This document shows, piece by piece, positions 5,066 through 48,357 of a stretch of 64,000 nt of DNA (positions within the stretch are counted from its first letter, which is position 1; each line of letters opens with the position of its first letter). This DNA comes from Escherichia phage TrudiRoth: the sequence record MZ501109. One strand, 5' to 3'. The position numbers and the translations under genes were made by a program. A model generated the notes under the pieces. That model was not told the origin of the DNA. It was given only the letters and a program-made list of their open reading frames with translations, and did no database searches.

Positions 5066-6585
5066 ATATCACTGGCCTGTTCACCTGTTGAATTTTCAGC
5101 TTTGTCTTTCTTAGCACGTTTAGGTTGAGCTGGTTTATCCTTTTCAATAGGAATAACGAACTCAGCTTCCATTTGCGCAATATCTTCCATTGCTAGGTTG
5201 GTAGTGTTATCCATTCGCAGAGTTTCCCAGTTCATCTTAGGCATAAACTTCACGCTATCAGAGGAACGAGTCTTAACGAAGTCAAACATAATAGCACCTT
5301 GACCATTATCAGCTTTTGCAGCATTAAGGTTGGCAGCCATGTCCGCGGAATCTAGGATACCTTTAGACATACGCGTTCTACCATCTTGGTCAATCTGGTA
5401 AGGAGCAACACCAGCCACGTTATATTTCTGGCAGATAGATTTGAAAGACGAACTAACAACCATCTGTTCCTTCCAGTCATACATATCAATGGTCTTTGAA
5501 TCTGGAAGTCTTGTTTGGTTAATATAGTCTAGAAGGGCTACAGTAACCTTATCACCATACTTAGCAACTAGTTTATTTAATTCTACGTCAACCGTCGTAA
5601 TAGACAGTTCAGGATCGTAAACGATGATCATAGGAGTGTGAAGTTCATAGCTTTCAAGTAGTTTACTTTCCATATCATAGAAGTCACTCATTTTAGCCAT
5701 AGTGTATTGCTTAACGAAGTTATCGAAAAGCTCTTCACCACCATTAAACATCCTAGCCCTAGTTCTGGCTAATCTCAACAGAGCAGCACCTTCAAGAGTG
5801 TTATTACGCATTGCTAATGCAGATACTCCAGCCAACATAGCCAGATTACGTCTAAACACTTCGTGCTCTTTCATCTCAATTGAAAAATATGGAGCAATGT
5901 CTCCATTCAAATATTGCTGAACCTGTATGTTTGAACAGATAATGGATTTACCAGTACCACGCCAACCACCAAGCAGTAACGTTTCTGTGCGAGCTAAACC
6001 AATTTGAGCGTCGAACTCATTACAAATACCAAGAGCGATCAAGTTCAGTTTGGTATCTTCTTCTCTCTGGAAAATACGCATTGTGTCTGCGTTGAATACC
6101 TTTCCAGTATTCGTTACTTTCTCTTCTAATTTTAAGTGAAGGGAGGCAACTCGGTTGAGAATTTCTCCCTGATCCAGCATTGTTAAATCTTGAAGCACGT
6201 CTGTTTCTAGAAGTTTCAGGAATAGATCCTGTGTATATTCGGCTTCTAGGACTTCAAGCGCCTGTTCCATGCTCACTTCTGGAATTTGAGTGTTAGCTAA
6301 GACGATAAGAGCTTGAGAAAGGCGGGCGTTCCTATTGGCCTCAAGCATCAGTGCGTCAATGGACGGCATTGCGTTATATTTCTTATAATAATTCTGGACG
6401 GCTTGGTAAATTGAGGAGAAAGCGTCATTAAAATGATCTTTATGCAGTTTTGAGAATGTTTCCAATGCTATTTGCTTCTGTTCAGAAGCGAGAAGCATCT
6501 TCAACACTACAGCTTGCACGTTAAACAAGGTCATTCTCCTTTGCACGCTTTCGTGCCTTCTAAATGCAAAAAGGGGAAGGAGCAT
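5062..6585 (-). CDS. DnaB-like replicative helicase (507 aa)
   Basis: Walker A LLGGWRGTGKS and Walker B IIVYDPE; position next to primase. Start uncertain: annotated ATG lies inside a terminator-like hairpin, alternative ATG at 6534. Confidence 0.65.
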   Translation of the reverse strand: MLLPLFAFRRHESVQRRMTLFNVQAVVLKMLLASEQKQIALETFSKLHKDHFNDAFSSIYQAVQNYYKKYNAMPSIDALMLEANRNARLSQALIVLANTQIPEVSMEQALEVLEAEYTQDLFLKLLETDVLQDLTMLDQGEILNRVASLHLKLEEKVTNTGKVFNADTMRIFQREEDTKLNLIALGICNEFDAQIGLARTETLLLGGWRGTGKSIICSNIQVQQYLNGDIAPYFSIEMKEHEVFRRNLAMLAGVSALAMRNNTLEGAALLRLARTRARMFNGGEELFDNFVKQYTMAKMSDFYDMESKLLESYELHTPMIIVYDPELSITTVDVELNKLVAKYGDKVTVALLDYINQTRLPDSKTIDMYDWKEQMVVSSSFKSICQKYNVAGVAPYQIDQDGRTRMSKGILDSADMAANLNAAKADNGQGAIMFDFVKTRSSDSVKFMPKMNWETLRMDNTTNLAMEDIAQMEAEFVIPIEKDKPAQPKRAKKDKAENSTGEQASDI

Positions 6586-15410: not shown

Positions 15411-15783
15411 ACCTCAGTGCTGCGCTCTCTTAACTCTTATCCAGATCAGAACCTAGGTCATTGGCCGCTAAGCCGATTCTGATTGCCCTCACTATCCTAT
15501 TGGTAGGTGGCTACTGGACGTGTCACCATTCGCTGCTCTTTTCGTTCGCACCCCCATATAAAGCTCTGCCTATATAACGAGCTAAATATGCACGGTTTGG
15601 ATTTACCTTTCCGAATTCAGGGTACGCAGATCACTTAATTGATAATTAACTAATGCAGTATAAACACTAGTAATAGTTAAAACAACCCTTAATGGGGCAG
15701 CCTAACTGTTCCGTATTGCGGATTGTAAACAAGAAAAATTAGCAAAATCAATTTTTACTAATGTCTCTCAATTCAATATAAAT

Positions 15784-15812
15784 ATTATATCAAGATTTTG
15801 AGCATCCTGCAA
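15784..15812 (-). promoter_or_regulatory. sigma70 promoter (TTGCAG-17-TATAAT) for the 970-aa gene, leaving a ~350-nt leader
   Basis: Reverse complement reads ttacTTGCAGgatgctcaaaatcttgaTATAATatttat. Confidence 0.5.
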
Positions 15813-15850
15813 GTAAAATTTTTCCGAAGGTGCTATCAGTGTCCTTGAGC

Positions 15851-15880
15851 ACAGAGAAAACCGAGTCATTTTGACTCGGT
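15851..15880 (-). terminator. Rho-independent terminator
   Basis: Perfect 9-bp stem accgagtca/tgactcggt, 3-nt loop, then tttctctg on minus strand. Confidence 0.65.
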
Positions 15881-15903
15881 AATCAGGATTGAGCTAATGA
15901 AAA

Positions 15904-29034: not shown

Positions 29035-29304
29035 ATGTCTATTCTTTTATCTGCTTTAGAAGCAAAACAAAATACTATTGCTAGCATTAAAAAGGAAGTA
29101 ATTGACCTAGAATCACTTATTGCCGTAGAGATTGACAAAGCTATTAAAGATAAAGAATTTAATTGTCACATCCAGGGATTAACTGAATACTCAGAAAACG
29201 CTAGAAATAGCGTCATGCAAAAACTTAGCAAACTAGGTTATGTTGTAGAAGCTAAGTATGAACAGCGTGAAGGTTTTTGGCTTGAAATTGATTGGAGCAA
29301 ATAA
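29035..29304 (+). CDS. hypothetical protein (89 aa)
   Basis: ORF track. Confidence 0.5.
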   Translation: MSILLSALEAKQNTIASIKKEVIDLESLIAVEIDKAIKDKEFNCHIQGLTEYSENARNSVMQKLSKLGYVVEAKYEQREGFWLEIDWSK

Positions 29305-29780
29305 TGTCGGTTTTCCACATATATACAGATGGTGCATGTAAAGGCAATCCTGGTTTAGGTGCGTGGGGATTCGTTGTCTATAATGATAATGATGATCGTA
29401 TTGGCTCTAAATCTGGCTTCAGCCCTAAAACTACTAATAACGAAATGGAACTTACTGCAATTGTAGAAGTTCTTCGTTGGTCTACTAAGAAAGATAATCG
29501 TCCAGTAATTATCTACACTGATTCTGCTTACTGCAAAAATGGTATGGAAAGCTGGATGTGGTCTTGGCAGAAGAAAGGCTGGAAGAAGGGAGATGGTGAA
29601 ACCCCTCTTAATCTAGAACTCTGGCAAGAAGCATTTAAACTAACCCAACAGTACATTAACTTCCATGATACCAATCCAACCTTTGTTAAGGTTAAAGGTC
29701 ACTCAGGTATTCGTGGTAATGAAGAAGTTGATGCTCTATGCAATACTGTAATTACTGAGCAAGAACTTGCTGAGATGTAA
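29304..29780 (+). CDS. rnhA: ribonuclease H
   Basis: MSVFHIYTDGACKGNPGLGAWG and TDSAY, VKGHSG...NEEVD; start may instead be 29292. Confidence 0.85.
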   Translation: MSVFHIYTDGACKGNPGLGAWGFVVYNDNDDRIGSKSGFSPKTTNNEMELTAIVEVLRWSTKKDNRPVIIYTDSAYCKNGMESWMWSWQKKGWKKGDGETPLNLELWQEAFKLTQQYINFHDTNPTFVKVKGHSGIRGNEEVDALCNTVITEQELAEM

Positions 29781-29800
29781 TAAATAAATTAAAAATTCAC

Positions 29801-29829
29801 TTGCTTAAAGCCCTCGAATTTAGTATAAT
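29801..29829 (+). promoter_or_regulatory. early-type sigma70 promoter (TTGCTT-17-TATAAT)
   Basis: attcacTTGCTTaaagccctcgaatttagTATAATattcg. Confidence 0.6.
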
Positions 29830-29856
29830 ATTCGTATTGAAAGTGAGGAGGGCTTT

Positions 29857-30135
29857 ATGCGAATTTACAACTCAAATTCATTAGGATTTAAACCTTTGAG
29901 AAAACGCGCACAATCTCCGCGTCAGATCAGAAAGGCAAATATTGGTGAGCCAGAAACTAGGCTTCCACCACCTCCGGAGCAACGTCTAGTTTACCTAGAT
30001 GAAGAGTTAGCCGAAAGGGAACGCAAAGCTCAAGAAGAAATTGAGCGTAAGAAACTGTGTACTGCTCCTGCGTATAACAAGGGTGGTTATCAATACGTTT
30101 CCAGTGAGGAACAAGCTAAGATGATCGGCAGATAA
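29857..30135 (+). CDS. hypothetical protein (92 aa)
   Basis: ORF track, promoter and RBS gaggaggg. Confidence 0.55.
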   Translation: MRIYNSNSLGFKPLRKRAQSPRQIRKANIGEPETRLPPPPEQRLVYLDEELAERERKAQEEIERKKLCTAPAYNKGGYQYVSSEEQAKMIGR

Positions 30136-30151
30136 TTTTTAAAAAATTCAT

Positions 30152-30180
30152 TTGCTAAACGCTTCAAAATTTAGTATAAT
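30152..30180 (+). promoter_or_regulatory. early-type sigma70 promoter (TTGCTA-17-TATAAT)
   Basis: attcatTTGCTAaacgcttcaaaatttagTATAAT. Confidence 0.6.
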
Positions 30181-30218
30181 ATATCTCATAAATTGATCAA
30201 CAAAAAGGAAAACAAATA

Positions 30219-30734
30219 ATGGCTAAGCAGAAAAACGCAAAAACTCAGGCAGCTCCGGCAGTTAAAACTTTCGCTCAGACCGAAGCCAATCGTAAGGCTC
30301 GTCTGGAACGTCATCTGCGTAAGCATCCTAGCGATGCTCAGGCTCAGACTGCTCTGAAGTCTCCGGTTCCGATTCGTCAGAAGCCGAAGGCTAAGAACTC
30401 CACTCGCGCAACTGCTAAGCAGGTTGTGTTCATCAAGGGTGAAGGTCATAAGTCTGTACCGGTAACTCTGAGCTTTAACGGAGGTGCTGAGATGTTCGCC
30501 CGCAACGGTATGGCTCTGAAAGATTACGAAAAAGCAGTCAATCAGAAGCGTAAGCCAATGGCTGACGTAATGCGTGAATCCCGTGGACAGTTTGGCTCCG
30601 TTAAACCGAATATCTTCGGGGTAGAGTATAGCCGTGACAACGTTCGCGCTCTGTGCTATGGTATCGGTATTAAGTTTACTGGTGCTTCTGATCGTAAATC
30701 CACTAAACCTGCTCGTAAGCGTAAAGCGAAGTAA
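30219..30734 (+). CDS. basic, apparently highly expressed protein (171 aa)
   Basis: Host-like high-expression codon bias, promoter, RBS; preferred over the overlapping minus-strand ORF. Confidence 0.6.
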   Translation: MAKQKNAKTQAAPAVKTFAQTEANRKARLERHLRKHPSDAQAQTALKSPVPIRQKPKAKNSTRATAKQVVFIKGEGHKSVPVTLSFNGGAEMFARNGMALKDYEKAVNQKRKPMADVMRESRGQFGSVKPNIFGVEYSRDNVRALCYGIGIKFTGASDRKSTKPARKRKAK

Positions 30735-30795
30735 TGATTGATGGGGCGAAAGCCCCATATACTAACTCTTTCTCTGACTAATTAAGGATATTTTT

Positions 30796-31011
30796 ATGTT
30801 CTCTAAGAAACCACGTTCCGTTACTGAAATCGTTGCTTCCTTTACCACTATTACTGATGAACTTCAAGCTCGTATTGAAGCTGACCAGAAAACTGCTGCT
30901 GATATTCAGAAACAGCAGGAAGAACTCGCTCTGAAACTGGCTGAAACCAATAAGAGTGAAAAATCTGCTCAAACTATTAAGGAAAATATCCTTAAACTGC
31001 TGGGCAAGTAA
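30796..31011 (+). CDS. hypothetical protein (71 aa)
   Basis: ORF track. Confidence 0.5.
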   Translation: MFSKKPRSVTEIVASFTTITDELQARIEADQKTAADIQKQQEELALKLAETNKSEKSAQTIKENILKLLGK

Positions 31012-31020
31012 TTTAAATCA

Positions 31021-31043
31021 GGGGGCGAAAGCCCCTCTTATTT
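31021..31043 (+). terminator. terminator-like GNRA hairpin
   Basis: gggggc-gaaa-gcccct followed by cttattt. Confidence 0.5.
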
Positions 31044-31052
31044 GGAGAAACT

Positions 31053-31265
31053 ATGCGTAACTTCGTTGCAAAGAATGATTTTAACCGTGCTAGCACTCAC
31101 AAGTCTGCTAGAGACTACACTCGTCTTTCTAAACATGAGCTTCTAGAAGAAATCATGGAAGAAAACTGGGATGTTAGTGAAAATGGAACAGACCTGTTTG
31201 AAGAAGGGGAACTTCCTCTGAAAGACCCCAAACAGTGGGAGTCTATTAAAGAGACAGCTCTTTAA
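31053..31265 (+). CDS. hypothetical protein (70 aa)
   Basis: ORF track. Confidence 0.5.
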   Translation: MRNFVAKNDFNRASTHKSARDYTRLSKHELLEEIMEENWDVSENGTDLFEEGELPLKDPKQWESIKETAL

Positions 31266-31295
31266 TAGTTTTCTACAACAATAAAGGACATAATT

Positions 31296-31997
31296 ATGAA
31301 ATTCAAGCCCTTTGGTATGCTGGACATTGAATCTCTAGGTACTCCAGGAAATTGCGGTACTACTCATATTGCAATGCCTTCTTTCGCTTTTGTAGCGATG
31401 CACGGAATTGATAAAGATCCTGATCTGGTATTCGTTACTCTAGACGTTCAAGATCAGCTTAATGCGGGTGCTAAGGTAACTGCCTCTACTATTGCATTCT
31501 GGATGGATCAAGCTAAAAACAGTCCATCTGCGCTCCATATTATGGAGGCTCTAAATGGTCGTAATCCTAAACTGATTGCCTTCCGTGATGGTAAGCATCA
31601 CTGCACTAATGACGTAGGCTCTAATTATGCTGCCTTCTCTATGGCTCAGAACATTATGGAATTGTCTCTAGGAGATAATGCTCTGTATTACGGCAATGGC
31701 CCAGAGTTTGATATGACTATCTACTCTGCAAATACGTTCCATGCCGGAACCCATGAAGAAGTAGTTCCGTGGAAATTCTGGAACTTAGGTAATGTTCGAT
31801 CTTTCCGTAATCAATGGATGCAAGCTGGTTATAGTTATAAAGATCTAGAAGCCGAAGGTGCTAGCTGGGCAAAAGCTAAAATGGAAAAGATGGATACCAT
31901 TCGTTATGGAATCTATCCAGTTAAACATGATCCAGCATTCGATGCTTTAGTTGAAAGTTATTGTGTAGCCATCATGATCGAAAAAATCAAAATTTGA
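31296..31997 (+). CDS. putative DEDDh-type 3'-5' exonuclease-like protein (233 aa)
   Basis: Candidate Exo I MLDIESLG, Exo II-like GNGPEFDM, Exo III-like KHDPAFDAL; inference. Confidence 0.45.
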   Translation: MKFKPFGMLDIESLGTPGNCGTTHIAMPSFAFVAMHGIDKDPDLVFVTLDVQDQLNAGAKVTASTIAFWMDQAKNSPSALHIMEALNGRNPKLIAFRDGKHHCTNDVGSNYAAFSMAQNIMELSLGDNALYYGNGPEFDMTIYSANTFHAGTHEEVVPWKFWNLGNVRSFRNQWMQAGYSYKDLEAEGASWAKAKMEKMDTIRYGIYPVKHDPAFDALVESYCVAIMIEKIKI

Positions 31998-31998
31998 T

Positions 31999-32027
31999 TT
32001 GCTTTCAGCTCCAAAATTCTGTATAAT
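31999..32027 (+). promoter_or_regulatory. early-type sigma70 promoter (TTGCTT-17-TATAAT)
   Basis: gatTTGCTTtcagctccaaaattctgTATAATatattcataaatttgagaga. Confidence 0.6.
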
Positions 32028-32067
32028 ATATTCATAAATTTGAGAGAACAACAAAAGGAAAATAATT

Positions 32068-32250
32068 ATGCCAGTATCTAAAAACGTCCGTAAAAATGGT
32101 AAAGTAGCAAAACGTAACCTGGGTCTGCGTCGTATGGCTGAGCGTCAGTCCGGCATCCAGAAAATCTTTAATGTACTGAATCGCACCAACCCGAATATTG
32201 ATAACAGTTCTGATACTGTTCTGCGCACTCTGCTCGCAATCGGTCTGTAA
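32068..32250 (+). CDS. small basic protein (60 aa)
   Basis: ORF track, promoter. Confidence 0.5.
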   Translation: MPVSKNVRKNGKVAKRNLGLRRMAERQSGIQKIFNVLNRTNPNIDNSSDTVLRTLLAIGL

Positions 32251-32304
32251 TAGACCGTTTTTAAAACAAGTTCAAATCTCAAACTTCATATAAGGAAGCA
32301 AATA

Positions 32305-32943
32305 ATGACTACTCGTATCTCTAAAACTCGTGCTCTGGCAACTATCAAGTCTCTGGAAGCTAAAATCCGTAAAGCTACTGAACAACAGCTTTTGATTGCT
32401 GTTGGTGAAGGTAAAGACAAGAATCAAGTTGTCGTTGGTGCTGCAATCGAAGTAGATGCTCTGTCTACTCGTATTAAAACTGATTTCCAGTCTCTGCTGG
32501 ATATGATGACCCAGCGTGATCATCTGAAAGCAGCGCTGATCAAGAGCAATGCTGAAACTGTTGTAGAGATCGGTTCCCGCTCTATGACTGTTGCGGAAGC
32601 AATCGAAGCTAAGCGTTCTATGGAACTCAAAGCTCAGTTGCTGGCTAACATGCGTAAGCAGTTCCATGCTGCTACTGTTAAGTTTAACACTCAAAAGGCT
32701 CAGTTTGATGCCAAGTATGAGCGTTTGCAGGATACCATGGCTACCCGTGACAAGAAGACTTCCGAGGATGAAGTTAAGATGCAGCTTAACCTGCTGGAAC
32801 TCAAGAACACTCCGTTCCTGATCGATCCGCTGGAGCTGGAAAAGCTGATCAAGCAACACGACGAAGAGTACCAGGACTTTGCAACCAACGTTGACTTTGT
32901 TCTGTCTGAGTCCAACGCCTCTACTTTTATCGAAGTAGAGTAA
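32305..32943 (+). CDS. hypothetical, apparently highly expressed coiled-coil protein (212 aa)
   Basis: Host-like codon bias; overlapping antisense ORFs judged shadows. Confidence 0.6.
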   Translation: MTTRISKTRALATIKSLEAKIRKATEQQLLIAVGEGKDKNQVVVGAAIEVDALSTRIKTDFQSLLDMMTQRDHLKAALIKSNAETVVEIGSRSMTVAEAIEAKRSMELKAQLLANMRKQFHAATVKFNTQKAQFDAKYERLQDTMATRDKKTSEDEVKMQLNLLELKNTPFLIDPLELEKLIKQHDEEYQDFATNVDFVLSESNASTFIEVE

Positions 32944-34884: not shown

Positions 34885-35764
34885 ATAAATTAGAGAACAG
34901 CGAGCCGATTACGCTGAGTGAGTTTAGTGATTCCTACTAGGATAGCTATTCCACTGAATAGAGTCGGTGAGTTTAGAATGATCACCTGTTAGAGTTCCGA
35001 GTCCAGTCCGGTATATCCGGCCAAGTGACTAGAGTAACGAATATAGGTTCGAGACTTCTTGTAAAACTCGGGAGCTGTCCCGAAATCTCGTAAACTCTTC
35101 TCTAGTTTATGTTAGTGGGGTGTCGAACTGACTTATGTGATAACACTGCCGTCCTAGTATAAACGGTAATATCAAACCGTAACTGGTGGAAGATGCAGGT
35201 TCGAATCCTGCGGTCGGAAAGAATCAGATAACTCGGGCTTATACCGGATAAGCATTCGCTGCTGGAGTACATACTATGACGGTTCAGGAGGTACGCCACC
35301 TGATCAGTATTAGGTTAGAATCGAAACAGCTAAACCACGAGGAAACCTGACGGCCTCAACCAAACTCGGAACTCGGGATCACTGCCTAGTGTGTGCCCCG
35401 TTTAACCTGAGACTAGGCATCCAGCTTCGCATCGAAAATCGGAGGTGCGATTCTAACAGACCGCGTGAATATGAGAGTGGGAAACGCTGACATGAGAGAT
35501 GTCACTAATGGTGCCCAATAGTACAGGTAATTCGCGATAATTCCTGTTGAGCGGCAGCAGTAGGCTGGGAGTCATGACCTAAGCCTAACCGAGTTCTTCA
35601 CATACGGAGAACATAACCACAAAGTCACCCTGACTTAAACTGGAAGATATTGTCTGACGGAAGGGCTGCAGAGCTTAATCTGAGGGGGCTGACCCTACCT
35701 ACCATCGGGTATCTTTAAGAGCTTTTTCGAGAGTTCTTAAAAATACCTAACAAAAGGAATCAAT
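34885..35764 (+). ncRNA. candidate large structured non-coding RNA or array of degenerate tRNA-like elements (~0.88 kb)
   Basis: No plus-strand ORF of 60 aa or more; appears GC-richer than flanks by eye; T-arm-like gcaggTTCGAATcctgc near 35194-35210 without pairing acceptor; recurring ACTCGG(G)/CCGAGT words. Confidence 0.4.
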
Positions 35765-42972: not shown

Positions 42973-43075
42973 TATTCTGTGTAGAGTTAAGTAAACCGGT
43001 AGCCAACCAGCTATCATTGCTGATATCGAATTCAGTCACAGATACCATTTTTCATTAACAACTGAGGAAATAGAT

Positions 43076-43264: not shown

Positions 43265-43846
43265 ATGCACGGAATATCCTTACCCATTCCAGGGTTTGAG
43301 GAGTACTTAGTAAGTTTGGATGGGTTAGTATTTAGTATCAAATCAAACAAAATACTAACCCAAATAACCAGTAATTACGGATACTTATCTATACGTCTCC
43401 ATAAAAATGGTCAACAGAGAAATACCGGTGTACATAGGATTTTAGCATGTGCATTTAAGAAATTACCAAGTCTAGACTCTGAACTAGAAGTTGACCATAT
43501 TAACACAGACATTACTTATTGGGGTCTTAATAACTTACAAGTGCTCACAAAAGAGCAGCATCTAGAAAAGACTTTAAAAGATAAAGGATTTAGTAAACTA
43601 AACCATGATAATTGTTGTAAGGATTGTGGTAAAGCTATTTCTTTAAAAGCTGAAAAATGTCAGGAGTGCTCTTCACATAAACCAAAAGATATCTCTATAA
43701 CTAAAGAAATAATCGAGGTTACAGTAAGAGAGCTAGGCTGGTCAGGTGCAGGGAGAAAGTTAAGTTATTCAGATAATGGGTTGCGTAAAAGATACACTTC
43801 TTTAGGAGGCAATCCTAAAGAACTTAAAAAGTTAAAGGTACTATAG
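43265..43846 (+). CDS. HNH homing endonuclease (HNH_3-like); 3' end overlaps tRNA-Asp
   Basis: HRILACAF...EVDHINTDITYWGLNNLQVLTKEQH; Cys-rich CKDCGKAIS...CQEC. Confidence 0.7.
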   Translation: MHGISLPIPGFEEYLVSLDGLVFSIKSNKILTQITSNYGYLSIRLHKNGQQRNTGVHRILACAFKKLPSLDSELEVDHINTDITYWGLNNLQVLTKEQHLEKTLKDKGFSKLNHDNCCKDCGKAISLKAEKCQECSSHKPKDISITKEIIEVTVRELGWSGAGRKLSYSDNGLRKRYTSLGGNPKELKKLKVL

Positions 43847-43911
43847 TCTAACGGTTAGGATACTCCCCTGTCACGGGAGAGGTAGGGTTTCGATTACCCT
43901 TAGTACCGCCA
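43837..43911 (+). tRNA. tRNA-Asp (anticodon GUC)
   Basis: Perfect acceptor ggtacta/tagtacc, anticodon arm ctccc-cuGUCac-gggag, T-arm agggtTTCGATTaccct, CCA. Confidence 0.75.
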
Positions 43912-43917
43912 AATTAT

Positions 43918-43994
43918 ACATCCATAGCTCAATTGGTTAGAGCTACCGCCTCTTAAGCGGTAGGTTCTAGGTTCAAGTCCTAGTGGGTGTACCA
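43918..43994 (+). tRNA. tRNA-Lys (anticodon CUU)
   Basis: Acceptor acatcca/tgggtgt, D-arm gctc-aattggtta-gagc, anticodon arm accgc-cuCUUaa-gcggt, T-arm ctaggTTCAAGTcctag, CCA. Confidence 0.65.
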
Positions 43995-44207
43995 AACATC
44001 AGAGCAGCGTGATGTACTGCAAAGACCCAAAGTCCGGGGTGGACTTCTTGATTCAAAGGAGCAGGCACTAATTATCATTCTAGCGTGGTGGAGAGGGGAC
44101 ACCAGCTTGCCGAGGGTAGAAGCTCGTTCGATTCGAGTGAAAGAATGGTTCTCGTAAATCCGCACAAGTGATAGCAGGTTCAAGTCCTGCCTAGATTGAC
44201 TTATTAT

Positions 44208-44281
44208 GCGTTCGTAGTTAAAAGGTATAATTTTTGGTTGCCAACCAGAAGTTGAGGGTTCGATTCCCTCCGACCGCACCA
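44208..44281 (+). tRNA. tRNA-Gly (anticodon GCC)
   Basis: Acceptor gcgttcg/cgaccgc (one mismatch), anticodon arm tttgg-uuGCCaa-ccaga, T-arm gagggTTCGATTccctc, CCA. Confidence 0.6.
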
Positions 44282-44590
44282 AATCTATCAAACCAAGCCT
44301 GCGCATTCGTGTAACAACTTGTGCGTCTGTAAGGTGATAGTAAACAAGCCACGGAGTTCCGGCCGTTCAACGTGGTAAAATCTTCTGAATAACAGGTCGT
44401 GGATACCTCTTTGGAGGCTCAACGGAAACGCAGGAGTGTAAGTAAACGAAAGTTTACTTATTATGTAGGTTCCGATAGATCGGCGGGTCTATTCTGGCAT
44501 TTAAGAGAAGTCTCGCAAACTTCTTTGTCAGCCGTGGGGTTGGTAGCCTCCAGGTGGCCTACACAATAAGTAAATTTATTAAAAATTAAT

Positions 44591-44619
44591 TTGCTATTCT
44601 GCTTAATTATCTGTATAAT
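44591..44619 (+). promoter_or_regulatory. early-type sigma70 promoter (TTGCTA-17-TATAAT)
   Basis: ttaatTTGCTAttctgcttaattatctgTATAATatattttataaagtgaataga. Confidence 0.6.
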
Positions 44620-44653
44620 ATATTTTATAAAGTGAATAGAAGGAAGTTAACAA

Positions 44654-44893
44654 ATGAAAAAATATTCAGAAGAATTTCTAGAAGATATGGATTTACATTA
44701 CCTGTTAACTTTGGTTTTAGAAGAAAAAATCTATGACCAATTTGATCTAGAAGGTCTTACAAAAGTAGATTGTATTCGTGCCCTTCTCACTGTTGAAACT
44801 CGCTATTTCGAATGTCAACAGTGTGGTGAAGTTAATGAGTGCTCTTGGGAATGTCCAGAGTGTGGATATGACGATCTGCTTGAAACAGAATAA
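44654..44893 (+). CDS. small zinc-ribbon protein (79 aa)
   Basis: CQQCGEVNECSWECPECG. Confidence 0.5.
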   Translation: MKKYSEEFLEDMDLHYLLTLVLEEKIYDQFDLEGLTKVDCIRALLTVETRYFECQQCGEVNECSWECPECGYDDLLETE

Positions 44894-44896
44894 TAT

Positions 44897-44973
44897 CTCC
44901 GATTAGCTCAATTGGTTAGAGCTACCGCCTCTTAAGCGGTAGGTTCTAGGTTCAAGTCCTTCATTGGAGACCA
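44897..44973 (+). tRNA. second tRNA-Lys(CUU)-like gene with weakened T-stem (possibly degenerate)
   Basis: D-arm, anticodon arm and T-loop identical to the 43918 copy; acceptor ctccgat/attggag; T-stem only 3 bp. Confidence 0.45.
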
Positions 44974-44979
44974 AACAAT

Positions 44980-45057
44980 TGCGGGTTAGATCTTTGGTAG
45001 AGATCGCTAGTCTCATAAGCTAGAAAGAGGTAGGTTCGATTCCTGCACCCGCTTCCA
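44980..45057 (+). tRNA. tRNA with CAU anticodon (Met/fMet/Ile2), U1-U72 mismatch
   Basis: Acceptor tgcgggt/acccgct with mismatched first pair, anticodon arm ctagt-cuCAUaa-gctag, T-arm gtaggTTCGATTcctgc, CCA. Confidence 0.55.
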
Positions 45058-45078
45058 ATTTAATAGAAGGATTTCGAA

Positions 45079-45243
45079 ATGAAATTATTTCGTTTAAAAG
45101 TAAGTGATTTACGTTCTAGCAAAGATCGTAAGAAGTATCCACTAGCCCATTACGGTAAAGATGAAAACGAAGTGATGGCGGAATTTGGTATTAATCACCC
45201 TTACTTAAAAGTTTATTCTATTAAGGAAGTCTATGCTAATTAA
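45079..45243 (+). CDS. small ORF (54 aa), below ORF-track threshold
   Basis: Own translation MKLFRLKVSDLRSSKDRKKYPLAHYGKDENEV... Confidence 0.35.
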   Translation: MKLFRLKVSDLRSSKDRKKYPLAHYGKDENEVMAEFGINHPYLKVYSIKEVYAN

Positions 45244-45706
45244 TAAAGTTTTAGCTGCCTTAAACCTTCCTGATAACTTCATTATAGATGATAAGCTCAT
45301 AAGAGCTTATATGAGCAAATATAACGAAATTTCAGGTAAAGAAGGTAAGTTAAAAACTTCAGAGTTTAGATTCTGTTATCGAATGGCAGCCTTAAATCTC
45401 TTAAAATATAAAAGGGAGCATAAAATACCTATAACGGAAGGTTTTGTATATGTAATTGGTAATCCAGCATGGCCAGGCATGTATAAAATAGGTATGACTA
45501 TAGATGTGAATGAGAGGTTAACAAGTTATCAAACTTATTCACCTAATAGAGACTACAAGCTATACCATTTCAGATTTTCGTCGGATAAAAGACGTACAGA
45601 GAAAGAATTACATAATCTTCTTAAAGATTATAGAGTATCTGGAGAATGGTTTGAAGTACCTGTACTAGATGCTTTTAAATTATTAGTAGAAAAATTGGAT
45701 TGCTAG
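45233..45706 (+). CDS. T5orf172-like (GIY-YIG-related) putative homing endonuclease; 3' end overlaps a tRNA
   Basis: GFVYVIGNPAWPGMYKIGMT... and YRVSGEWFEV; recalled from the T5orf172 domain, not searched. Confidence 0.5.
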   Translation: MLINKVLAALNLPDNFIIDDKLIRAYMSKYNEISGKEGKLKTSEFRFCYRMAALNLLKYKREHKIPITEGFVYVIGNPAWPGMYKIGMTIDVNERLTSYQTYSPNRDYKLYHFRFSSDKRRTEKELHNLLKDYRVSGEWFEVPVLDAFKLLVEKLDC

Positions 45707-45774
45707 CTCAACTGGATAAGAGTAGCGGACCTTTAATCCGTCAGTTCTGGGTTCGAATCCCAGGCAATCCACCA
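45697..45774 (+). tRNA. tRNA-Lys (anticodon UUU) with C at position 33
   Basis: Perfect acceptor ggattgc/gcaatcc, D-stem gctc/gagt, anticodon arm gcgga-ccUUUaa-tccgt, T-arm ctgggTTCGAATcccag, CCA. Confidence 0.6.
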
Positions 45775-45778
45775 AATT

Positions 45779-45852
45779 GCTCGGTTAGTTTAATGGGAGA
45801 ACCCCGTCTTTACACGGCGGTTGCGATAGTTCGATTCTATCACCGAGTACCA
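45779..45852 (+). tRNA. tRNA-Val (anticodon UAC)
   Basis: Acceptor gctcggt/accgagt, D-stem gttt/gaac, anticodon arm ccgtc-uuUACac-gacgg, T-arm gatagTTCGATTctatc, CCA. Confidence 0.7.
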
Positions 45853-45870
45853 CTCAACTAAAATAAGGAA

Positions 45871-46113
45871 TTGCAAATGCAATTATCATCTAAAGTTCAA
45901 GGTTTCTTCGCACATGCAACAGCAGAATTTGCTATTAGCAAGGGTTGGGATTTTGAGCAAGAACTTTCTGAGTTCTATAAAGATATAGATATGAATACGC
46001 CATACATGGGACTCTCCACTGGTCAAGAGATCACAGAAGGCGATGTGTTCAAGGCAAGTCAAGGTGAGGTAACACCTAGTTTTGCCGCTTTTTTGGAGTG
46101 GCTTCACAATTAA
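45871..46113 (+). CDS. hypothetical protein (80 aa)
   Basis: ORF track. Confidence 0.5.
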   Translation: MQMQLSSKVQGFFAHATAEFAISKGWDFEQELSEFYKDIDMNTPYMGLSTGQEITEGDVFKASQGEVTPSFAAFLEWLHN

Positions 46114-46222
46114 AGAAGAAGCTCCAGATGATGATGTATTTATGCAAAGCATGCACTCTGGGAGTTCTGATATGTTATTTGTTAAAGATGTACGACATAT
46201 CCAAGAAGTGGTAAAAACGCAG

Positions 46223-46251
46223 TTGCTTAATGCTTAATTTCTTGTTATAAT
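46223..46251 (+). promoter_or_regulatory. early-type sigma70 promoter followed by ~330 nt with no ORF, then tRNAs
   Basis: cagTTGCTTaatgcttaatttcttgtTATAATatttatataaattgatgcg. Confidence 0.6.
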
Positions 46252-46585
46252 ATTTATATAAATTGATGCGAAAATAGCTGCCTAGATACCAGGTGTATGA
46301 CGTCTACACTAGCAGAGCTACCGAAAAAGAGATCCTCAGGATAAACGTCGTAGCAAAATTAGTCTGGTATCCATTAATTTAGTTCACTAAGGTATTAGCT
46401 CGACCTAGGACTGGCTGCCAAAAAGCACGATCCCTACGATTTGGGAGAAGTTCTAGATTAGTCCACTAGATTCAGCGGCAACTGAATAGTGTATCGGGTT
46501 TGTGAAGAGCAGCTATTCTCTACTGGCTAATGTCTGAGGTTAGTACGCACACCGAGCTAATAGCCTTAGTAAACTTAAAGAATTT

Positions 46586-46661
46586 GGGCGAATAGTGTCA
46601 GCGGGAGCACACCAGACTTGCAAGTCTGGTAGGGAGGGTTCGAGTCTCTCTTTGTCCACCA
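46586..46661 (+). tRNA. non-canonical tRNA (GCA-containing anticodon arm; loop of 8 or 6 nt)
   Basis: Acceptor gggcgaa/tttgtcc, D-arm gtgt-cagcggga-gcac, anticodon arm is a perfect 18-nt palindrome ccagacttgcaagtctgg, T-arm gagggTTCGAGTctctc, CCA. Confidence 0.45.
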
Positions 46662-46676
46662 AATTAAAAAGAATGC

Positions 46677-46753
46677 GCGCGATTGACGGAATAGGTATAC
46701 GTGTCAGCCTTAGAAGTTGAATTTTGAGGGTTCGAATCCCTTGTCGCGCACCA
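46677..46753 (+). tRNA. tRNA with UAG anticodon (Leu-type) but short variable arm
   Basis: Perfect acceptor gcgcgat/gtcgcgc, anticodon arm tcagc-cuUAGaa-gttga, T-arm gagggTTCGAATccctt, A73, CCA. Confidence 0.5.
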
Positions 46754-46878
46754 AATTTGATGGTCAGAGTAAATTAAACCTACTATCTCGGTTGAGCTGT
46801 TTTAATGGATTCGAATCCCAGCGAGGCGTAACTGCCTGGCGTGATAGAGGCATCATTCCACTAACATTGGAAAAACTA

Positions 46879-47109
46879 ATGAAACGAAAATTAAAAAAGT
46901 CTTATATAATTAAGATAAATAAGCTACGAAGTAGGGCAAAAGGATGGCCACTTCGAATATTAATTGCGGATAACCATATTAGATACCATGCGGAACAACA
47001 TCATTACAAACAGTGGGAGTCATACTGTCGCTCAAAAGCAGGTCGTTTAGATGGATCTTATGAGCTTCTATTTGGTAAGAAGCCTACTAGATTAGCTTTA
47101 GGTAAGTAA
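46879..47109 (+). CDS. small basic protein (about 76 aa)
   Basis: Track ORF 46717..47109 truncated to internal ATG because its 5' part overlaps tRNA/tRNA-like sequence. Confidence 0.4.
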   Translation: MKRKLKKSYIIKINKLRSRAKGWPLRILIADNHIRYHAEQHHYKQWESYCRSKAGRLDGSYELLFGKKPTRLALGK

Positions 47110-47114
47110 TACTT

Positions 47115-47208
47115 GGAAAAGCAAATAGACTGGCGACTAAACCCGATTGGAAATCGGTTGAGTAATAGCAATATTGCCTTATGGGTTCAACTCCCATCTT
47201 TTCCGCCA
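47115..47208 (+). tRNA. tRNA-Ser (anticodon GGA), long variable arm
   Basis: Perfect acceptor ggaaaag/cttttcc, anticodon arm ccga-uuGGAaa-tcgg, T-arm atgggTTCAACTcccat, CCA. Confidence 0.7.
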
Positions 47209-47223
47209 AATATTGGAGTATAG

Positions 47224-47739
47224 ATGCTAACACAACAAGAATTAAAATCCGTGTTGTTATATAAACCAGATACTGGAGAGTTTTTCTGGAAATATAGATC
47301 TGATTTAGATAGTCAATGGAATAGTAAATATGCTGGAACTAGGGCAGGATTTATTAATGAACTAGGCTATTGGAAGATAACTCTAGGAAATACTAGCTGG
47401 TTAGCACATCGTCTAGCATTCTTATACATGACTGGGGAAATACCAGATCTAATTGACCACAAGGATCAAGATAAGTCCAATACTAAATGGGATAACTTAC
47501 GAATAGCCACTGTATCACAGAATCAGGCTAATGCTAAATTAAGGGTAGATAATACCTCTGGGTACAAAAATGTAACTTGGCATAAGCAAAGAAATAAGTG
47601 GAAAGTAGAAGTACGTAAAGATGGCAAACTCCATTATGGTGGACTTTTTACAGAACTAGATAAAGCTGTAAATAAAGCTAATAATCTTAGACGTGAGTTA
47701 TTCGGGGAATTTGCAGTATATGAAGAGTTTATGGGGTAG
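47224..47739 (+). CDS. HNH-AP2 homing endonuclease (paralog); 3' end overlaps tRNA-Ser
   Basis: HRLAFLYMTGEIPDLIDHKDQDKSNTKWDNLRIATVSQNQAN and AP2-like SGYKNVTWHKQRNKWKVEVRKDGK. Confidence 0.75.
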   Translation: MLTQQELKSVLLYKPDTGEFFWKYRSDLDSQWNSKYAGTRAGFINELGYWKITLGNTSWLAHRLAFLYMTGEIPDLIDHKDQDKSNTKWDNLRIATVSQNQANAKLRVDNTSGYKNVTWHKQRNKWKVEVRKDGKLHYGGLFTELDKAVNKANNLRRELFGEFAVYEEFMG

Positions 47740-47829
47740 GTCAATCCAACGGCTGGCGCTGGACTCCGACTTGAAATCGGTTGATCGTAGTGATACGGTG
47801 TAAGGGTTCGATCCCCTTACCTACCTCCA
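47735..47829 (+). tRNA. tRNA-Ser (anticodon UGA), long variable arm
   Basis: Perfect acceptor ggtaggt/acctacc, D-stem tcca/tgga, anticodon arm ccga-cuUGAaa-tcgg, T-arm aagggTTCGATCccctt, CCA. Confidence 0.7.
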
Positions 47830-47849
47830 ATTAACTATAAGGAATCCTT

Positions 47850-48023
47850 ATGAGCAAAACAGCTACTGTAACAATGAAGGATGGTACAAAATTTAAAGCA
47901 TGTCTTCATGAAACAGATAATGGATGGAAGGCTTATTTGCCACACCTAGATTCCACTGGGTATGGAATGACCCAACGTGAAGCTATTGTTGATGCTTTAA
48001 ATGAGGCTTCCGCTGGTTTATAA
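47850..48023 (+). CDS. small ORF (57 aa), below ORF-track threshold
   Basis: Own translation MSKTATVTMKDGTKFKACLHETDNGWKAY...; RBS taaggaatcc. Confidence 0.35.
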   Translation: MSKTATVTMKDGTKFKACLHETDNGWKAYLPHLDSTGYGMTQREAIVDALNEASAGL

Positions 48024-48029
48024 AAATTC

Positions 48030-48160
48030 TTGGAATATGCCGGAATTGGTAGACGGGACTGCCGAATAGGTTTACTAGGAACATCCACTCCTAGAAATAT
48101 ACCTTAAAAGCGGTTGAGTTAAATGGTATAACTCATGAAGGTTCAAGTCCTTCTATTCCT
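48030..48160 (+). tRNA. tRNA-Leu(UAA)-like gene (type II) with ~40-nt insertion in the anticodon arm; 131 nt, no encoded CCA
   Basis: Acceptor tggaata/tattcct (6 of 7 bp), UG at 8-9, Leu-type D-arm ccg-GAATTGGTAGA-cgg, stem actgc(48057-61)/gcggt(48109-13) separated by 47 nt ending in cuUAAaa, 6-bp variable hairpin, T-arm gaaggTTCAAGTccttc. Confidence 0.4.
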
Positions 48161-48282
48161 TGATACATCAATGGCTCAAAGTGTAACGGTGCTATTTGAT
48201 GCTCTTGGCAAGACTTCCCCGACATGCGTTCGGGAGTAAGCTGCTAAGACTAGAGTAGAAGAGTTTCAACAAGACAACGATA

Positions 48283-48357
48283 GCTCTTAAAGCATTGCTG
48301 GCGATGCAGTTGCCTTGTAAGCATCTGAACCGGGTTCGATTCCTAGTGGGAGCACCA
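48283..48357 (+). tRNA. tRNA-Thr (anticodon UGU)
   Basis: Acceptor gctctta/tgggagc, D-stem gcat/atgc, anticodon arm gttgc-cuUGUaa-gcatc, T-arm ccgggTTCGATTcctag, CCA. Confidence 0.6.

What the first reader, a model, noticed from the sequence alone, without database searches (positions are those of the whole stretch)
46252..46585. Additional ORF-free stretches behind promoters in the tRNA cluster
A canonical promoter at 46223-46251 is followed by ~330 nt without ORF or RBS before the first tRNA, and 44285-44590 (~300 nt, containing a perfect 9-bp stem with GAAA loop at ~44436-44457) is similarly ORF-free. These look like structured leaders or small stable RNAs rather than simple spacers.
Basis: seen in the sequence. 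Interest (0 to 1): 0.4.

Follow-up and report, generated by a model that had tools for sequence, protein, structure and literature searches.

The report
Known T5 stable RNA genes

Summary
The window is the tRNA region of a T5-like phage (Demerecviridae).

- **Stretch A (46252-46585):** it lies behind a promoter identical to T5/BF23 promoter P13b. It is the third-largest ORF- and tRNA-free gap in the window.
- **Stretch B (44285-44590):** it is not behind a promoter. It follows tRNA-Gly(GCC) and ends just before promoter P13a. The 9-bp GAAA hairpin is at 44439-44460.

GenBank records of T5 (AY692264) and BF23 (NC_042564) annotate misc_RNA genes at the same positions. RNA2H maps to 46393-46565. 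RNAIV maps to 44463-44565. BF23 labels both "stable RNA with unknown functions".

Both folds are supported by covariation:
- RNAIV is a four-way junction on a 23-bp base stem.
- RNA2H is a multi-helix RNA with a pseudoknot on a 21-bp base stem.

The rest of A is an expanded 5' leader hairpin domain (A1). The rest of B is a four-hairpin tRNA-Gly trailer (B1). Neither is annotated anywhere.

No conserved ORF, Rfam family, tRNA-like signal, host homologue or paralogue was found. The annotated mature ends sit staggered inside the base stems, which suggests RNase III-type excision; this is inferred. Function is unknown, and the T5 tRNA region tolerates deletions.

Verdict: real, structured, already known; modest interest.

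The parts
46223..46251 (+). Early promoter, orthologue of T5/BF23 promoter P13b (-35 TTGCTT 46223-46228, 17-nt spacer, -10 TATAAT 46246-46251). The transcript start is inferred at about 46258.
   Evidence: Sequence. Identical to the annotated P13b of AY692264 and NC_042564.
46259..46381 (+). A1: an expanded 5'-terminal leader hairpin domain. The closing stem is UAAAUUGAUG/CAUUAAUUUA, followed by GAUACCAG/CUGGUAUC and two inner hairpins. T5 has only a short hairpin here.
   Evidence: Fold. Present full-length at 90% identity or more in 83 of about 529 T5-like records, unannotated in nearly all rows shown. A C-G to U-A compensatory change in phage 1-23/STyj5-1 turns TGG into TGA in the only ORF.
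46381..46575 (+). RNA2H precursor domain: a 21-bp base stem (46381-46402 with 46553-46575, bulged G at 46563) carrying the RNA2H body.
   Evidence: RNAalifold and pair counts on 31 sequences. The covariance model gives 218 bits and a single copy.
46393..46565 (+). Orthologue of the mature RNA2H annotated in T5/BF23 (172 nt there, 'stable RNA with unknown functions').
   Evidence: blastn gives 99% identity over the first 110 nt; the 3' hairpin is a different allele. Annotation.
46408..46470 (+). Pseudoknot core of RNA2H. GGACUG (46408-46413) pairs with UAGUCC (46459-46464), which is the loop of hairpin UCUAG/CUAGA (46452-46456 / 46466-46470). A variable hairpin lies in between.
   Evidence: All 6 pseudoknot pairs are 100% paired, 3 with changes on both sides. 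The hairpin has 3 pairs with changes on both sides. Within Klebsiella phages one pair runs C-G, U-G, U-A.
46509..46548 (+). Variable 3' hairpin of RNA2H. It occurs as alternative alleles in different phages.
   Evidence: 8 of 12 pairs show changes on both sides.
46586..46661 (+). tRNA-Ala(UGC), the first tRNA of the P13b unit. It lies 20 nt after the RNA2H 3' end.
   Evidence: ARAGORN and Rfam. 97% identical to T5 tRNA-Ala.
44208..44281 (+). tRNA-Gly(GCC). Stretch B is its 3' trailer. T5 lacks this tRNA and B1; BF23 has both.
44285..44340 (+). B1 hairpin I, one of at least three alternative alleles at this position.
   Evidence: CUAUC/GAUAG becomes CUACC/GGUAG in BF23.
44348..44376 (+). B1 hairpin II. 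The stem differs between alleles (CCACG/CGUGG versus GCGAU/GUCGC). The apical sequence GUU(U)CCGGCCG(G)UUC is conserved and is also found in 75 Klebsiella phage records.
44382..44436 (+). B1 hairpin III, variable in length. The outer stem is CUUCUG/CAGGAG.
44438..44461 (+). Its 3' strand is also the 5' strand of the RNAIV outer stem, so the two pairings exclude each other.
   Evidence: A to G changes in some homologues keep a G-U pair.
44450..44577 (+). RNAIV precursor domain: a 13-bp outer stem, one mismatch, a 10-bp inner stem, and a four-way junction with three hairpins. The central 7-nt loop CUCGCAA is invariant.
   Evidence: z = -5.4. 50 pairs are 97.9% paired against 52% or less when slid; 6 pairs have changes on both sides. 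The covariance model gives 154 bits and a single copy.
44463..44565 (+). Orthologue of the mature RNAIV annotated in T5/BF23 (103 nt, 'stable RNA with unknown functions').
   Evidence: 99% identical to T5 and 97% to BF23. Annotation.
44591..44619 (+). Promoter P13a (TTGCTA, 17 nt, TATAAT). It drives the next unit and is not the promoter of stretch B.

Best explanation
Both stretches are non-coding RNA genes and processing elements of the early tRNA operons of a T5-like phage.

**Stretch A.** It consists of promoter P13b, a 5'-terminal leader hairpin domain (A1), RNA2H, a 20-nt spacer and tRNA-Ala. RNA2H is about 173 nt. It is a pseudoknotted multi-helix RNA on a 21-bp base stem.

**Stretch B.** It consists of the tRNA-Gly(GCC) trailer, made of four hairpins (B1), followed by RNAIV. 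RNAIV is 103 nt. It is a four-way junction on a 23-bp base stem. It lies directly upstream of promoter P13a.

**Shown.**
- Orthology to the annotated T5/BF23 stable RNAs.
- Folds under selection.
- No coding potential.
- One copy of RNA2H and one of RNAIV in the window and in each of the few related loci searched with the models.

**Inferred.**
- The RNAs are co-transcribed with tRNAs.
- They are cut out by a double-strand-specific endonuclease in the base stems (RNase III type).
- RNase P and RNase E cut at the flanking tRNAs.
- This leaves compact bodies that persist as stable RNAs.

**Speculative (about 20%).** The bodies act in trans by binding a host or phage protein of RNA/tRNA metabolism or of defence. 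They are dispensable in laboratory hosts.
For: **Identity.** The window is T5-like. T5 st0 (AY692264) and BF23 (NC_042564) annotate rna2H between P13b and tRNA-Ala, and rnaIV just upstream of P13a, as stable RNAs. blastn maps them to 46393-46565 and 44463-44565 at 97-99% identity.

**Structure.**
- RNAIV has 50 pairs, 97.9% paired against 38-52% for slid controls. Six pairs have changes on both sides, and no shuffle of 500 reaches this.
- RNA2H has 59 pairs in 8 helices including a pseudoknot, 97.2% paired against 27-41% for slid controls. Twenty-five pairs have changes on both sides, and no shuffle of 500 reaches this.
- An independent C-G, U-G, U-A series occurs in the pseudoknot within Klebsiella phages.

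**Conservation.** RNAIV is 99% identical to T5, while the neighbouring ORF (45079-45243) is 77% identical.

**Coding.** No ORF is conserved. The compensatory change in the A1 stem creates a stop codon in the only candidate ORF.

**Processing.** In the alignment columns, the annotated T5 ends of RNA2H fall at column 14 (5') and column 214 (3'). Column 214 pairs with column 12. This gives a 2-nt 3' overhang plus a bulged G. The RNAIV ends give a 1-2-nt 3' overhang at a conserved mismatch.

**Dispensability.** Viable T5 mutants carry non-essential deletions in the tRNA gene region. Phage T5-123 lacks 29191-32442, an interval I take to cover RNA2H; the reference record of those coordinates was not checked. 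Source: Glukhov et al. 2018, as used in PMC11464382.
Against: - No expression or end-mapping data for this phage were available. Stability rests on the wording of the GenBank annotation, whose primary papers are not in the held library.
- Most aligned sequences are close relatives. The covariation comes from a few lineages: Klebsiella phages, Eps7, UTK0009 and STyj5-1.
- RNA2H alone does not fold much better than shuffles (z = -1.8).
- RNase III involvement is inferred from geometry only. The RNAIV overhang is 1 nt if the A-C mismatch is counted as a pair.
- In phages with B1, the GAAA hairpin competes with the RNAIV outer stem.
- No function is shown.
Confidence: 0.8

Rival explanations
1. 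The elements act only in cis. The long base stems and hairpin arrays are processing and insulation signals. They separate ORF mRNA from tRNA precursors and protect ends. The stable RNAs are by-products with no activity of their own.
For: Both RNAs sit at the borders of transcription units: RNA2H is first after P13b and RNAIV is last before P13a. The base stems are 21-23 bp. A1 starts at about +2 of the transcript. The tRNA region tolerates deletions in T5. Hairpins are exchanged as cassettes between phages.
Against: The bodies are under selection, not only the base stems. The evidence is pseudoknot covariation, invariant loops (CUCGCAA, and CGGCAA/CUGGUAA) and 99% identity to T5 across the RNAIV body. 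A pure cleavage site would not need a 100-170-nt conserved fold.
Confidence: 0.25
2. They are decayed tRNA genes or tRNA-like RNAs, like RNA1, RNA2 and RNA3 of BF23. They would be processed by the tRNA machinery.
For: They lie in a tRNA cluster. RNAIV is a four-way junction whose central 7-nt loop CUCGCAA fits the Y-U-NNN-R-N pattern of anticodon loops. The neighbouring rna2 at 44076-44201 is annotated as tRNA-like.
Against: ARAGORN finds nothing in either stretch. The Rfam tRNA model gives no match even at E up to 10. The RNAIV arms are 8, 12 and 7 bp with almost no junction nucleotides, and there is no T-loop motif. RNA2H has a pseudoknot and no cloverleaf. BF23 annotators reserved the term 'tRNA-like' for other RNAs.
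Confidence: 0.08
3. They are simple spacers or recombination scars left by homing-endonuclease-driven shuffling of the tRNA island. The structure is incidental.
For: The region is a mosaic with three homing-endonuclease-type ORFs. A1 and B1 are present or absent as blocks. A TAAGTAAA direct repeat flanks RNAIV.
Against: There are compensatory changes in every helix tested. Conservation is as high as that of the tRNAs. The RNAs are annotated as stable RNAs in T5 and BF23.
Confidence: 0.04
4. They encode small peptides.
For: There is a 29-aa GTG ORF in A1 (46293-46382) and a 56-aa GTG ORF in B (44399-44569).
Against: No Shine-Dalgarno sequence precedes either ORF (read). The B ORF is absent or reduced to 14 residues in homologues. 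The A1 ORF is cut by the same substitution that preserves the RNA stem. Indels of 2-3 nt occur in RNAIV hairpin 3.
Confidence: 0.02
5. RNAIV with its stem is a transcription terminator or attenuator that ends the upstream unit before P13a.
For: It lies immediately before a promoter. The outer stem is followed by UUUAUU.
Against: No + strand terminator-like site is found in either stretch. The stem next to the U-tract is AU-rich. The BF23 annotators mark terminators elsewhere, not here.
Confidence: 0.05

Closest known systems
RNA2H (gene rna2H) of phages T5 (AY692264.1, 31811-31982) and BF23 (NC_042564.1, 4056-4227)
   Same: It has the same position between promoter P13b and tRNA-Ala. The first 110 nt are 99% identical. 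It has the same 10-bp inner closing stem followed by GCC, and the same base stem.
   Different: The 3' hairpin (46509-46548) is a different allele, shared with Eps7-type phages. This phage also has the 120-nt A1 domain between the promoter and RNA2H, which T5 and BF23 lack.
RNAIV (gene rnaIV) of T5 (32841-32943) and BF23 (5371-5473)
   Same: It is 97-99% identical, has the same length (103 nt) and lies at the same position directly upstream of promoter P13a.
   Different: As in BF23 but unlike T5, it is preceded by tRNA-Gly(GCC) plus a hairpin trailer. The last hairpin of that trailer competes with the RNAIV outer stem.
RNA species I and II of the T4 tRNA gene cluster
   Same: They are stable small RNAs encoded among phage tRNA genes and co-processed with them. 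The genes are drawn as part of the tRNA region in PMC2330249. That their function is still unassigned is from my own knowledge.
   Different: I found no sequence relation, though none was tested directly. T4 is an unrelated phage family.
RNase III processing stems, such as those flanking 16S/23S rRNA and the T7 early processing sites (established knowledge)
   Same: A helix of 20 bp or more encloses the product. The annotated ends are staggered with a 3' overhang. A bulge or mismatch lies at the cut.
   Different: Cleavage has not been shown here. The RNAIV overhang may be 1 nt.
Large structured phage RNAs found next to tRNAs (GOLLD, ROOL) and other Rfam families
   Same: They are phage-borne, next to tRNAs, complex in fold and of unknown function.
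   Different: No Rfam 15 family matches either stretch, even at E up to 10. These RNAs are much smaller (103 and 173 nt).

Membership tests
T5/BF23 RNA2H | Sequence homology to the annotated rna2H gene | tested here: met
   99% identity over 110 nt and conserved 3' closing strand. The covariance model gives 218 bits.
T5/BF23 RNA2H | Location between promoter P13b and tRNA-Ala | tested here: met
T5/BF23 RNA2H | Accumulates as a stable RNA in infected cells | not testable with these tools
   This rests only on the wording of the GenBank annotation.
T5/BF23 RNAIV | Sequence homology to the annotated rnaIV gene | tested here: met
   99% identity to T5 and 97% to BF23 over all 103 nt. The covariance model gives 154 bits.
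T5/BF23 RNAIV | Location directly upstream of promoter P13a | tested here: met
T5/BF23 RNAIV | Accumulates as a stable RNA in infected cells | not testable with these tools
   Annotation only.
tRNA or tRNA-like RNA | Cloverleaf with D and T arms detectable by tRNA models | tested here: not met
   There is no ARAGORN call. There is no Rfam tRNA match at E up to 10 inside 44282-44590 or 46252-46585.
RNase III substrate | Helix of about 20 bp or more at the processing site | tested here: met
   The base stems are 21 bp (RNA2H) and 23 bp (RNAIV), 98.7-99.8% paired across homologues.
RNase III substrate | Product ends staggered with a 2-nt 3' overhang | tested here: inconclusive
   From the annotated T5 ends, RNA2H has 2 nt plus a bulged G and RNAIV has 1-2 nt. 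The experimental basis of the annotated ends could not be checked.
RNase III substrate | Cleavage depends on RNase III | not testable with these tools
   This needs an rnc mutant host.
Intrinsic terminator | G+C-rich hairpin followed by a U-tract on the + strand | tested here: not met
   There is no + strand site in either stretch.
Any Rfam 15 family (riboswitches, ribozymes, GOLLD, ROOL, tmRNA and others) | Covariance model match | tested here: not met
   The gathering-threshold scan of the window and the E up to 10 scan of 43900-48300 give only tRNAs and chance hits that overlap tRNAs.
Small protein gene | ORF conserved across homologues with a ribosome-binding site | tested here: not met
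   plus the sequence.

The most novel reading that the evidence does not exclude
RNA2H (pseudoknotted) and RNAIV (four-way junction) could be trans-acting counter-defence or host-takeover RNAs of the phage tRNA island. They might act as decoys or inhibitors for host RNA-targeting immunity or RNA-processing enzymes. This would complement the T5 tRNAs already shown to neutralise PARIS and retron Eco7. The unannotated A1 and B1 modules could be further exchangeable members of the same toolkit.
Probability: 0.12. Interest if true: 0.75.

Novelty: already known. Interest (0 to 1): 0.3.

Why it matters
T5-like phages are very common coliphages and Salmonella phages and are used in biocontrol. Their tRNA island has recently been shown to carry anti-defence functions: tRNA-Lys against PARIS (PMC11464382) and tRNA-Tyr against retron Eco7 (bioRxiv 10.1101/2023.03.15.532788).

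The same island holds several conserved, structured, abundant RNAs whose function has stayed unassigned since they were annotated. They are absent from Rfam, and nearly all of the roughly 500 related genome records leave them unannotated. Stating their coordinates, folds and likely processing makes them testable and annotatable.

For the scan itself, the result is that this finding is real but not new.

Tried and rejected
- **Paralogy between A, B and the rna2 region.** Only chance matches of 8-14 nt were found.
- **Extra copies.** Covariance models of RNAIV and RNA2H found none in the window or in Klebsiella, Providencia or Enterobacter phage loci. No RNAIV was found in the Klebsiella phage stretches held.
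- **Host mimicry.** blastn of both stretches against 5,426 complete E. coli genomes gave no match.
- **Rfam.** Nothing was found.
- **Reach beyond T5-like phages.** Stepping out from the Klebsiella RNA2H only returned Demerecviridae of Escherichia, Salmonella, Klebsiella and close hosts. The Providencia hit was only the promoter.
- **IMG/VR pattern scan.** The short degenerate RNA2H motif gave mostly chance hits outside T5-like contigs.
- **Literature.** Primary papers on T5 stable RNAs and T5 transcriptomes were not in the held library. PMC150520 is not held.
- **Re-alignment.** Re-aligning RNA2H to the model did not fix the 1-column register shift of two Klebsiella helices. These two helices were compared by eye instead.
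- **Excluded record.** Klebsiella phage vB_Kpn_3 (MZ079855, a partial genome with gaps) carries a chimeric RNA2H with non-pairing closing strands and was left out.
- **Whole-B fold.** The MFE of whole B uses long-range pairs that are not conserved and was not used.

Full report
**What the window is.** ARAGORN finds 23 tRNA genes, all on the + strand, between 36283 and 49190. Rfam finds only tRNAs. Megablast of 43800-48200 hits 522 phage records, all T5-like phages of Salmonella, Escherichia, Klebsiella and relatives. The matches are in pieces, at 88-96% identity. The window is therefore the tRNA gene region of a member of the Demerecviridae.

**Check of the observation.**
- Stretch A lies behind TTGCTT(46223-46228)-17 nt-TATAAT(46246-46251). 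The generic promoter scan does not list it because the -35 matches only 3 of 6 consensus bases. It is nevertheless identical to the annotated promoter P13b of T5 and BF23.
- Between this promoter and tRNA-Ala(UGC) at 46586, the longest + strand ORF is 29 aa. The interval 46238-46585 is the third-largest gap free of ORFs and tRNAs in the 64 kb.
- Stretch B is not behind a promoter. It begins right after tRNA-Gly(GCC) (44208-44281) and ends just before TTGCTA(44591)-17 nt-TATAAT(44619). That promoter is P13a.
- The perfect 9-bp stem with GAAA loop is real. It lies at 44439-44447 / 44452-44460. The window has about 10 distinct perfect hairpins of this kind, against 1.9 hits per dinucleotide shuffle.
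- B does contain a mechanical 56-aa GTG ORF.

**What is already annotated there.** Most related records annotate nothing, or only 'hypothetical protein', over these stretches. Two records from the Ksenzenko group are different.
- T5 st0 (AY692264.1) carries misc_RNA features. RNA2H lies between P13b and tRNA-Ala. rna2 and RNAIV lie upstream of P13a.
- The BF23 tRNA-region record (NC_042564.1) has the same genes with notes. RNA 2H and RNAIV are each 'stable RNA with unknown functions'. RNA1, RNA2 and RNA3 are each 'tRNA-like RNA with unknown functions'. A 784-nt RNAX lies before tRNA-Arg.
- blastn of these features onto the window gives the following:
  - RNA2H maps to 46393-46565; the first 110 nt are 99% identical.
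  - RNAIV maps to 44463-44565 at 99% (T5) and 97% (BF23).
  - rna2 maps to 44076-44201, which is outside the finding.
  - RNA1 maps to 48029-48172, RNAI to 48173-48267 and rna3 to 42975-43047.
- The core of each stretch is thus an orthologue of a gene already on record.

**Anatomy of stretch A.**
- Alignment with T5 shows four blocks: an identical promoter; a block of about 112 nt (roughly 46269-46380) that T5 lacks; 118 identical bases; and a replaced 3' hairpin followed by a conserved end.
- The extra block (A1, 46259-46381) folds as one domain. It is closed by UAAAUUGAUG/CAUUAAUUUA and GAUACCAG/CUGGUAUC, starting at about +2 of the transcript.
- T5 has a short hairpin (UGAUG...CAUCA) at the same place. 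A1 is therefore an expansion of the leader hairpin.
- A1 occurs full-length, at 90-99% identity, in 83 records and nowhere else.
- In phages 1-23, STyj5-1 and Ob_P, the inner stem changes C-G to U-A.

**RNA2H fold.** I collected 31 distinct RNA2H sequences with flanks, including three from Klebsiella T5-like phages. RNAalifold predicts a 21-bp base stem (46381-46402 with 46553-46575, one bulged G at 46563) and a 3' hairpin with many compensatory changes. I extended this by hand to 8 helices.
- GGACUG (46408-46413) pairs with UAGUCC (46459-46464). That segment is the loop of hairpin UCUAG/CUAGA (46452-46456 / 46466-46470). This makes a pseudoknot.
- Next comes hairpin UUCAG-CGGCAA-CUGAA (46471-46486).
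- A short helix GCAC/GUGU encloses these elements.
- A variable hairpin lies at 46431-46446. It is 20-25 nt longer in other phages.
- The 3' hairpin lies at 46509-46548.
- On the alignment, 97.2% of cells pair, against 27-41% when partners are slid by 1-3 columns. Twenty-five pairs change on both sides, and no shuffle of 500 reaches this.
- The pseudoknot helix is 100% paired, with three pairs changed on both sides. The hairpin that carries it has three.
- UTK0009 changes UCUAG/CUAGA to UCUGA/UCAGA.
- Within Klebsiella phages one pseudoknot pair runs C-G (Roth39), U-G (L028), U-A (Kpn24-P2). This is an independent event.
- Two Klebsiella helices are shifted by one column in the MAFFT and model alignments. 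Read directly, they are ACGC-CUGGUAA-GCGU and CUUGCA...UGCAAG. They are full replacements of the E. coli-phage helices.

**Anatomy of stretch B.**
- T5 has 17 nt between rna2 and the RNAIV stem. This phage, BF23 and many Epseptimavirus-type phages have a tRNA plus a trailer inserted there.
- The trailer (B1) has the same plan in all variants. The plan is CCA-AAU, hairpin I, the linker UAAACAAG, hairpin II, the linker UAAAAUC, hairpin III and hairpin IV.
- Hairpin I comes in at least three unrelated alleles. Within alleles there are compensatory changes: CUAUC/GAUAG to CUACC/GGUAG, and UUAGG/CCUAG to UUAGA/UCUGA.
- Hairpin II keeps its apical GUU(U)CCGGCCG(G)UUC while the stem is swapped (CCACG/CGUGG against GCGAU/GUCGC). 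Its core is also found in 75 Klebsiella phage records. In the Klebsiella phage examined it sits after a tRNA-like sequence and upstream of another promoter, with further sequence in between.
Its 3' strand (44452-44460) is also the 5' strand of the RNAIV outer stem. TAAGTAAA occurs on both sides (44439-44446 and 44567-44574). The two pairings therefore exclude each other. I have no explanation for this.

**RNAIV fold.**
- The fold of 44449-44578 has z = -5.4. It consists of a 13-bp outer stem, one mismatch, a 10-bp inner stem and three hairpins with almost no junction nucleotides.
- On 23 distinct sequences, 97.9% of cells pair, against 38-52% for slid controls. Six pairs change on both sides, and no shuffle of 500 reaches this.
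- Examples are AUAGA/UCUAU to ACACA/UGUGU, and UAGG/CCUA to UAAG/CUUA, both in Eps7. Hairpin 3 is wholly replaced in several phages.
- The 7-nt loop CUCGCAA and the GGCG loop never vary.
- A mismatch is always present at or next to the annotated 5' end.

**Not coding, not tRNA, not a known family, single copy.**
- The 56-aa ORF of B is absent or reduced to 14 residues in homologues. Hairpin 3 has 2-3-nt indels.
- The 29-aa ORF in A1 has no Shine-Dalgarno sequence. It is truncated by the TGG to TGA change that is the compensatory partner in the A1 stem.
- There is no tRNA model match or any other Rfam match in either stretch at E up to 10.
- There is no similarity between A, B and rna2.
- There are no extra copies by covariance model search.
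- There is no match in 5,426 E. coli genomes.

**Context.**
- Segment by segment, the region's closest relatives differ. RNAIV is 99% identical to T5, while the ORF at 45079-45243 is 77% identical to T5 and 98% identical to Eps7.
- Three homing-endonuclease-type ORFs are interleaved.
- The RNA genes are kept as well as the tRNAs in this mosaic.

**How it most likely works.**
- Shown: these are conserved structured non-coding elements, orthologous to annotated stable RNAs.
- Inferred, transcription: they are transcribed with the tRNAs from early promoters. RNA2H comes from P13b. B comes by read-through from an upstream promoter.
- Inferred, excision: they are excised by cuts in their base stems.
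  - Using the T5 annotated ends, RNA2H starts at alignment column 14 and ends at column 214. Column 214 pairs with column 12.
  - This is a 2-nt 3' overhang plus the bulged G, which is the geometry RNase III leaves.
  - RNAIV gives 1-2 nt at the conserved mismatch.
  - I put about 50% on RNase III.
- The biological role is unknown.
[quoted passage not shown] 2018, via PMC11464382). One of them, T5-123 (deletion 29191-32442), spans an interval I take to cover RNA2H; the coordinate system was not checked.
  - Any role is therefore conditional.
  - Selection on the bodies argues for a trans function, which I put at about 20% for a protein-binding or decoy role. The cis-only view gets about 25%. 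The rest is unknown.

**Comparison with the known.** These are members of the T5/BF23 RNA2H and RNAIV gene families by position, sequence and fold. Stability in vivo could not be tested here. [quoted passage not shown] They are in no Rfam family.

**Verdict.**
The main objects are already annotated in the type phage.
- This analysis adds covariation-supported folds, including a pseudoknot, and the observation that the mature ends sit in long base stems. It also adds two unannotated structured modules, A1 and B1.
- Interest is modest (0.3).

Noticed in passing
44076-44201: Orthologue of BF23/T5 rna2 ('tRNA-like RNA with unknown functions'). It has two T-arm-like hairpins and lies between tRNA-Lys(CTT) and tRNA-Gly(GCC). 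ARAGORN and Rfam do not call it.
   Followed up: partly
48029-48267: Orthologues of BF23/T5 RNA1 (tRNA-like, 48029-48172) and RNAI (stable RNA, 48173-48267), contiguous and upstream of tRNA-Thr. RNAIII, which follows them in T5, has no match in the window.
   Followed up: partly
34892-35750: Patchy similarity (86-97%, in five pieces) to the 784-nt RNAX of BF23, a 'stable RNA with unknown functions' upstream of tRNA-Arg. The interval 35300-35764 is the second-largest ORF- and tRNA-free gap. A weak tRNA match (29.3 bits) lies at 35148-35219. There is no Rfam match to any large RNA.
   Followed up: partly
15411-15903: The largest stretch of the window (493 nt) without any ORF of at least 45 aa on either strand and without a tRNA. 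It contains a perfect 9-bp hairpin at 15860-15880.
   Followed up: no
42975-43047: Orthologue of BF23 rna3 ('tRNA-like RNA'), 96% identical, directly after tRNA-Asn.
   Followed up: no
46754-46870: ORF-free stretch after tRNA-Leu(TAG) with a T-arm-like GGATTCGAATCC. It is 98% identical to an unannotated gap of BF23. It may be a decayed tRNA or another small RNA.
   Followed up: no
47735-47825: A long-arm tRNA-like sequence seen only as a sub-threshold match to the Rfam tRNA-Sec model (38 bits). ARAGORN does not call it. It corresponds to the T5 serine tRNA that one T5 record marks as a pseudogene.
   Followed up: no
43265-43846, 45233-45706, 47224-47739: Three homing-endonuclease-type ORFs lie among the tRNAs: NUMOD4/HNH_3, T5orf172/MUG113 and HNH_3. 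The best-matching relative changes from segment to segment, so the island is a mosaic of exchangeable cassettes.
   Followed up: partly
44439-44446 and 44567-44574: Direct repeat TAAGTAAA on both sides of RNAIV. Both copies are complementary to 44452-44460. The GAAA hairpin and the RNAIV outer stem therefore cannot form together. The hairpin is absent from T5, which lacks the tRNA-Gly/B1 insertion. The meaning is unknown.
   Followed up: partly
L088 (MZ079855.1) 869-1083: The RNA2H of Klebsiella phage vB_Kpn_3 has a Klebsiella-type 5' half and an E. coli-phage-type 3' half, with closing strands that do not pair. The record is a partial genome with sequencing gaps, so this is probably an assembly chimera.
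   Followed up: no
L088 5903-6360 and L021 3319-3591: Klebsiella T5-like phages have ORF-free stretches with the same logic. One is a promoter followed by a divergent RNA2H before tRNA-Ala. The other is a long tRNA-like sequence plus B1-type hairpins before another promoter. In some records these are annotated as 'hypothetical protein' on the wrong strand.
   Followed up: partly
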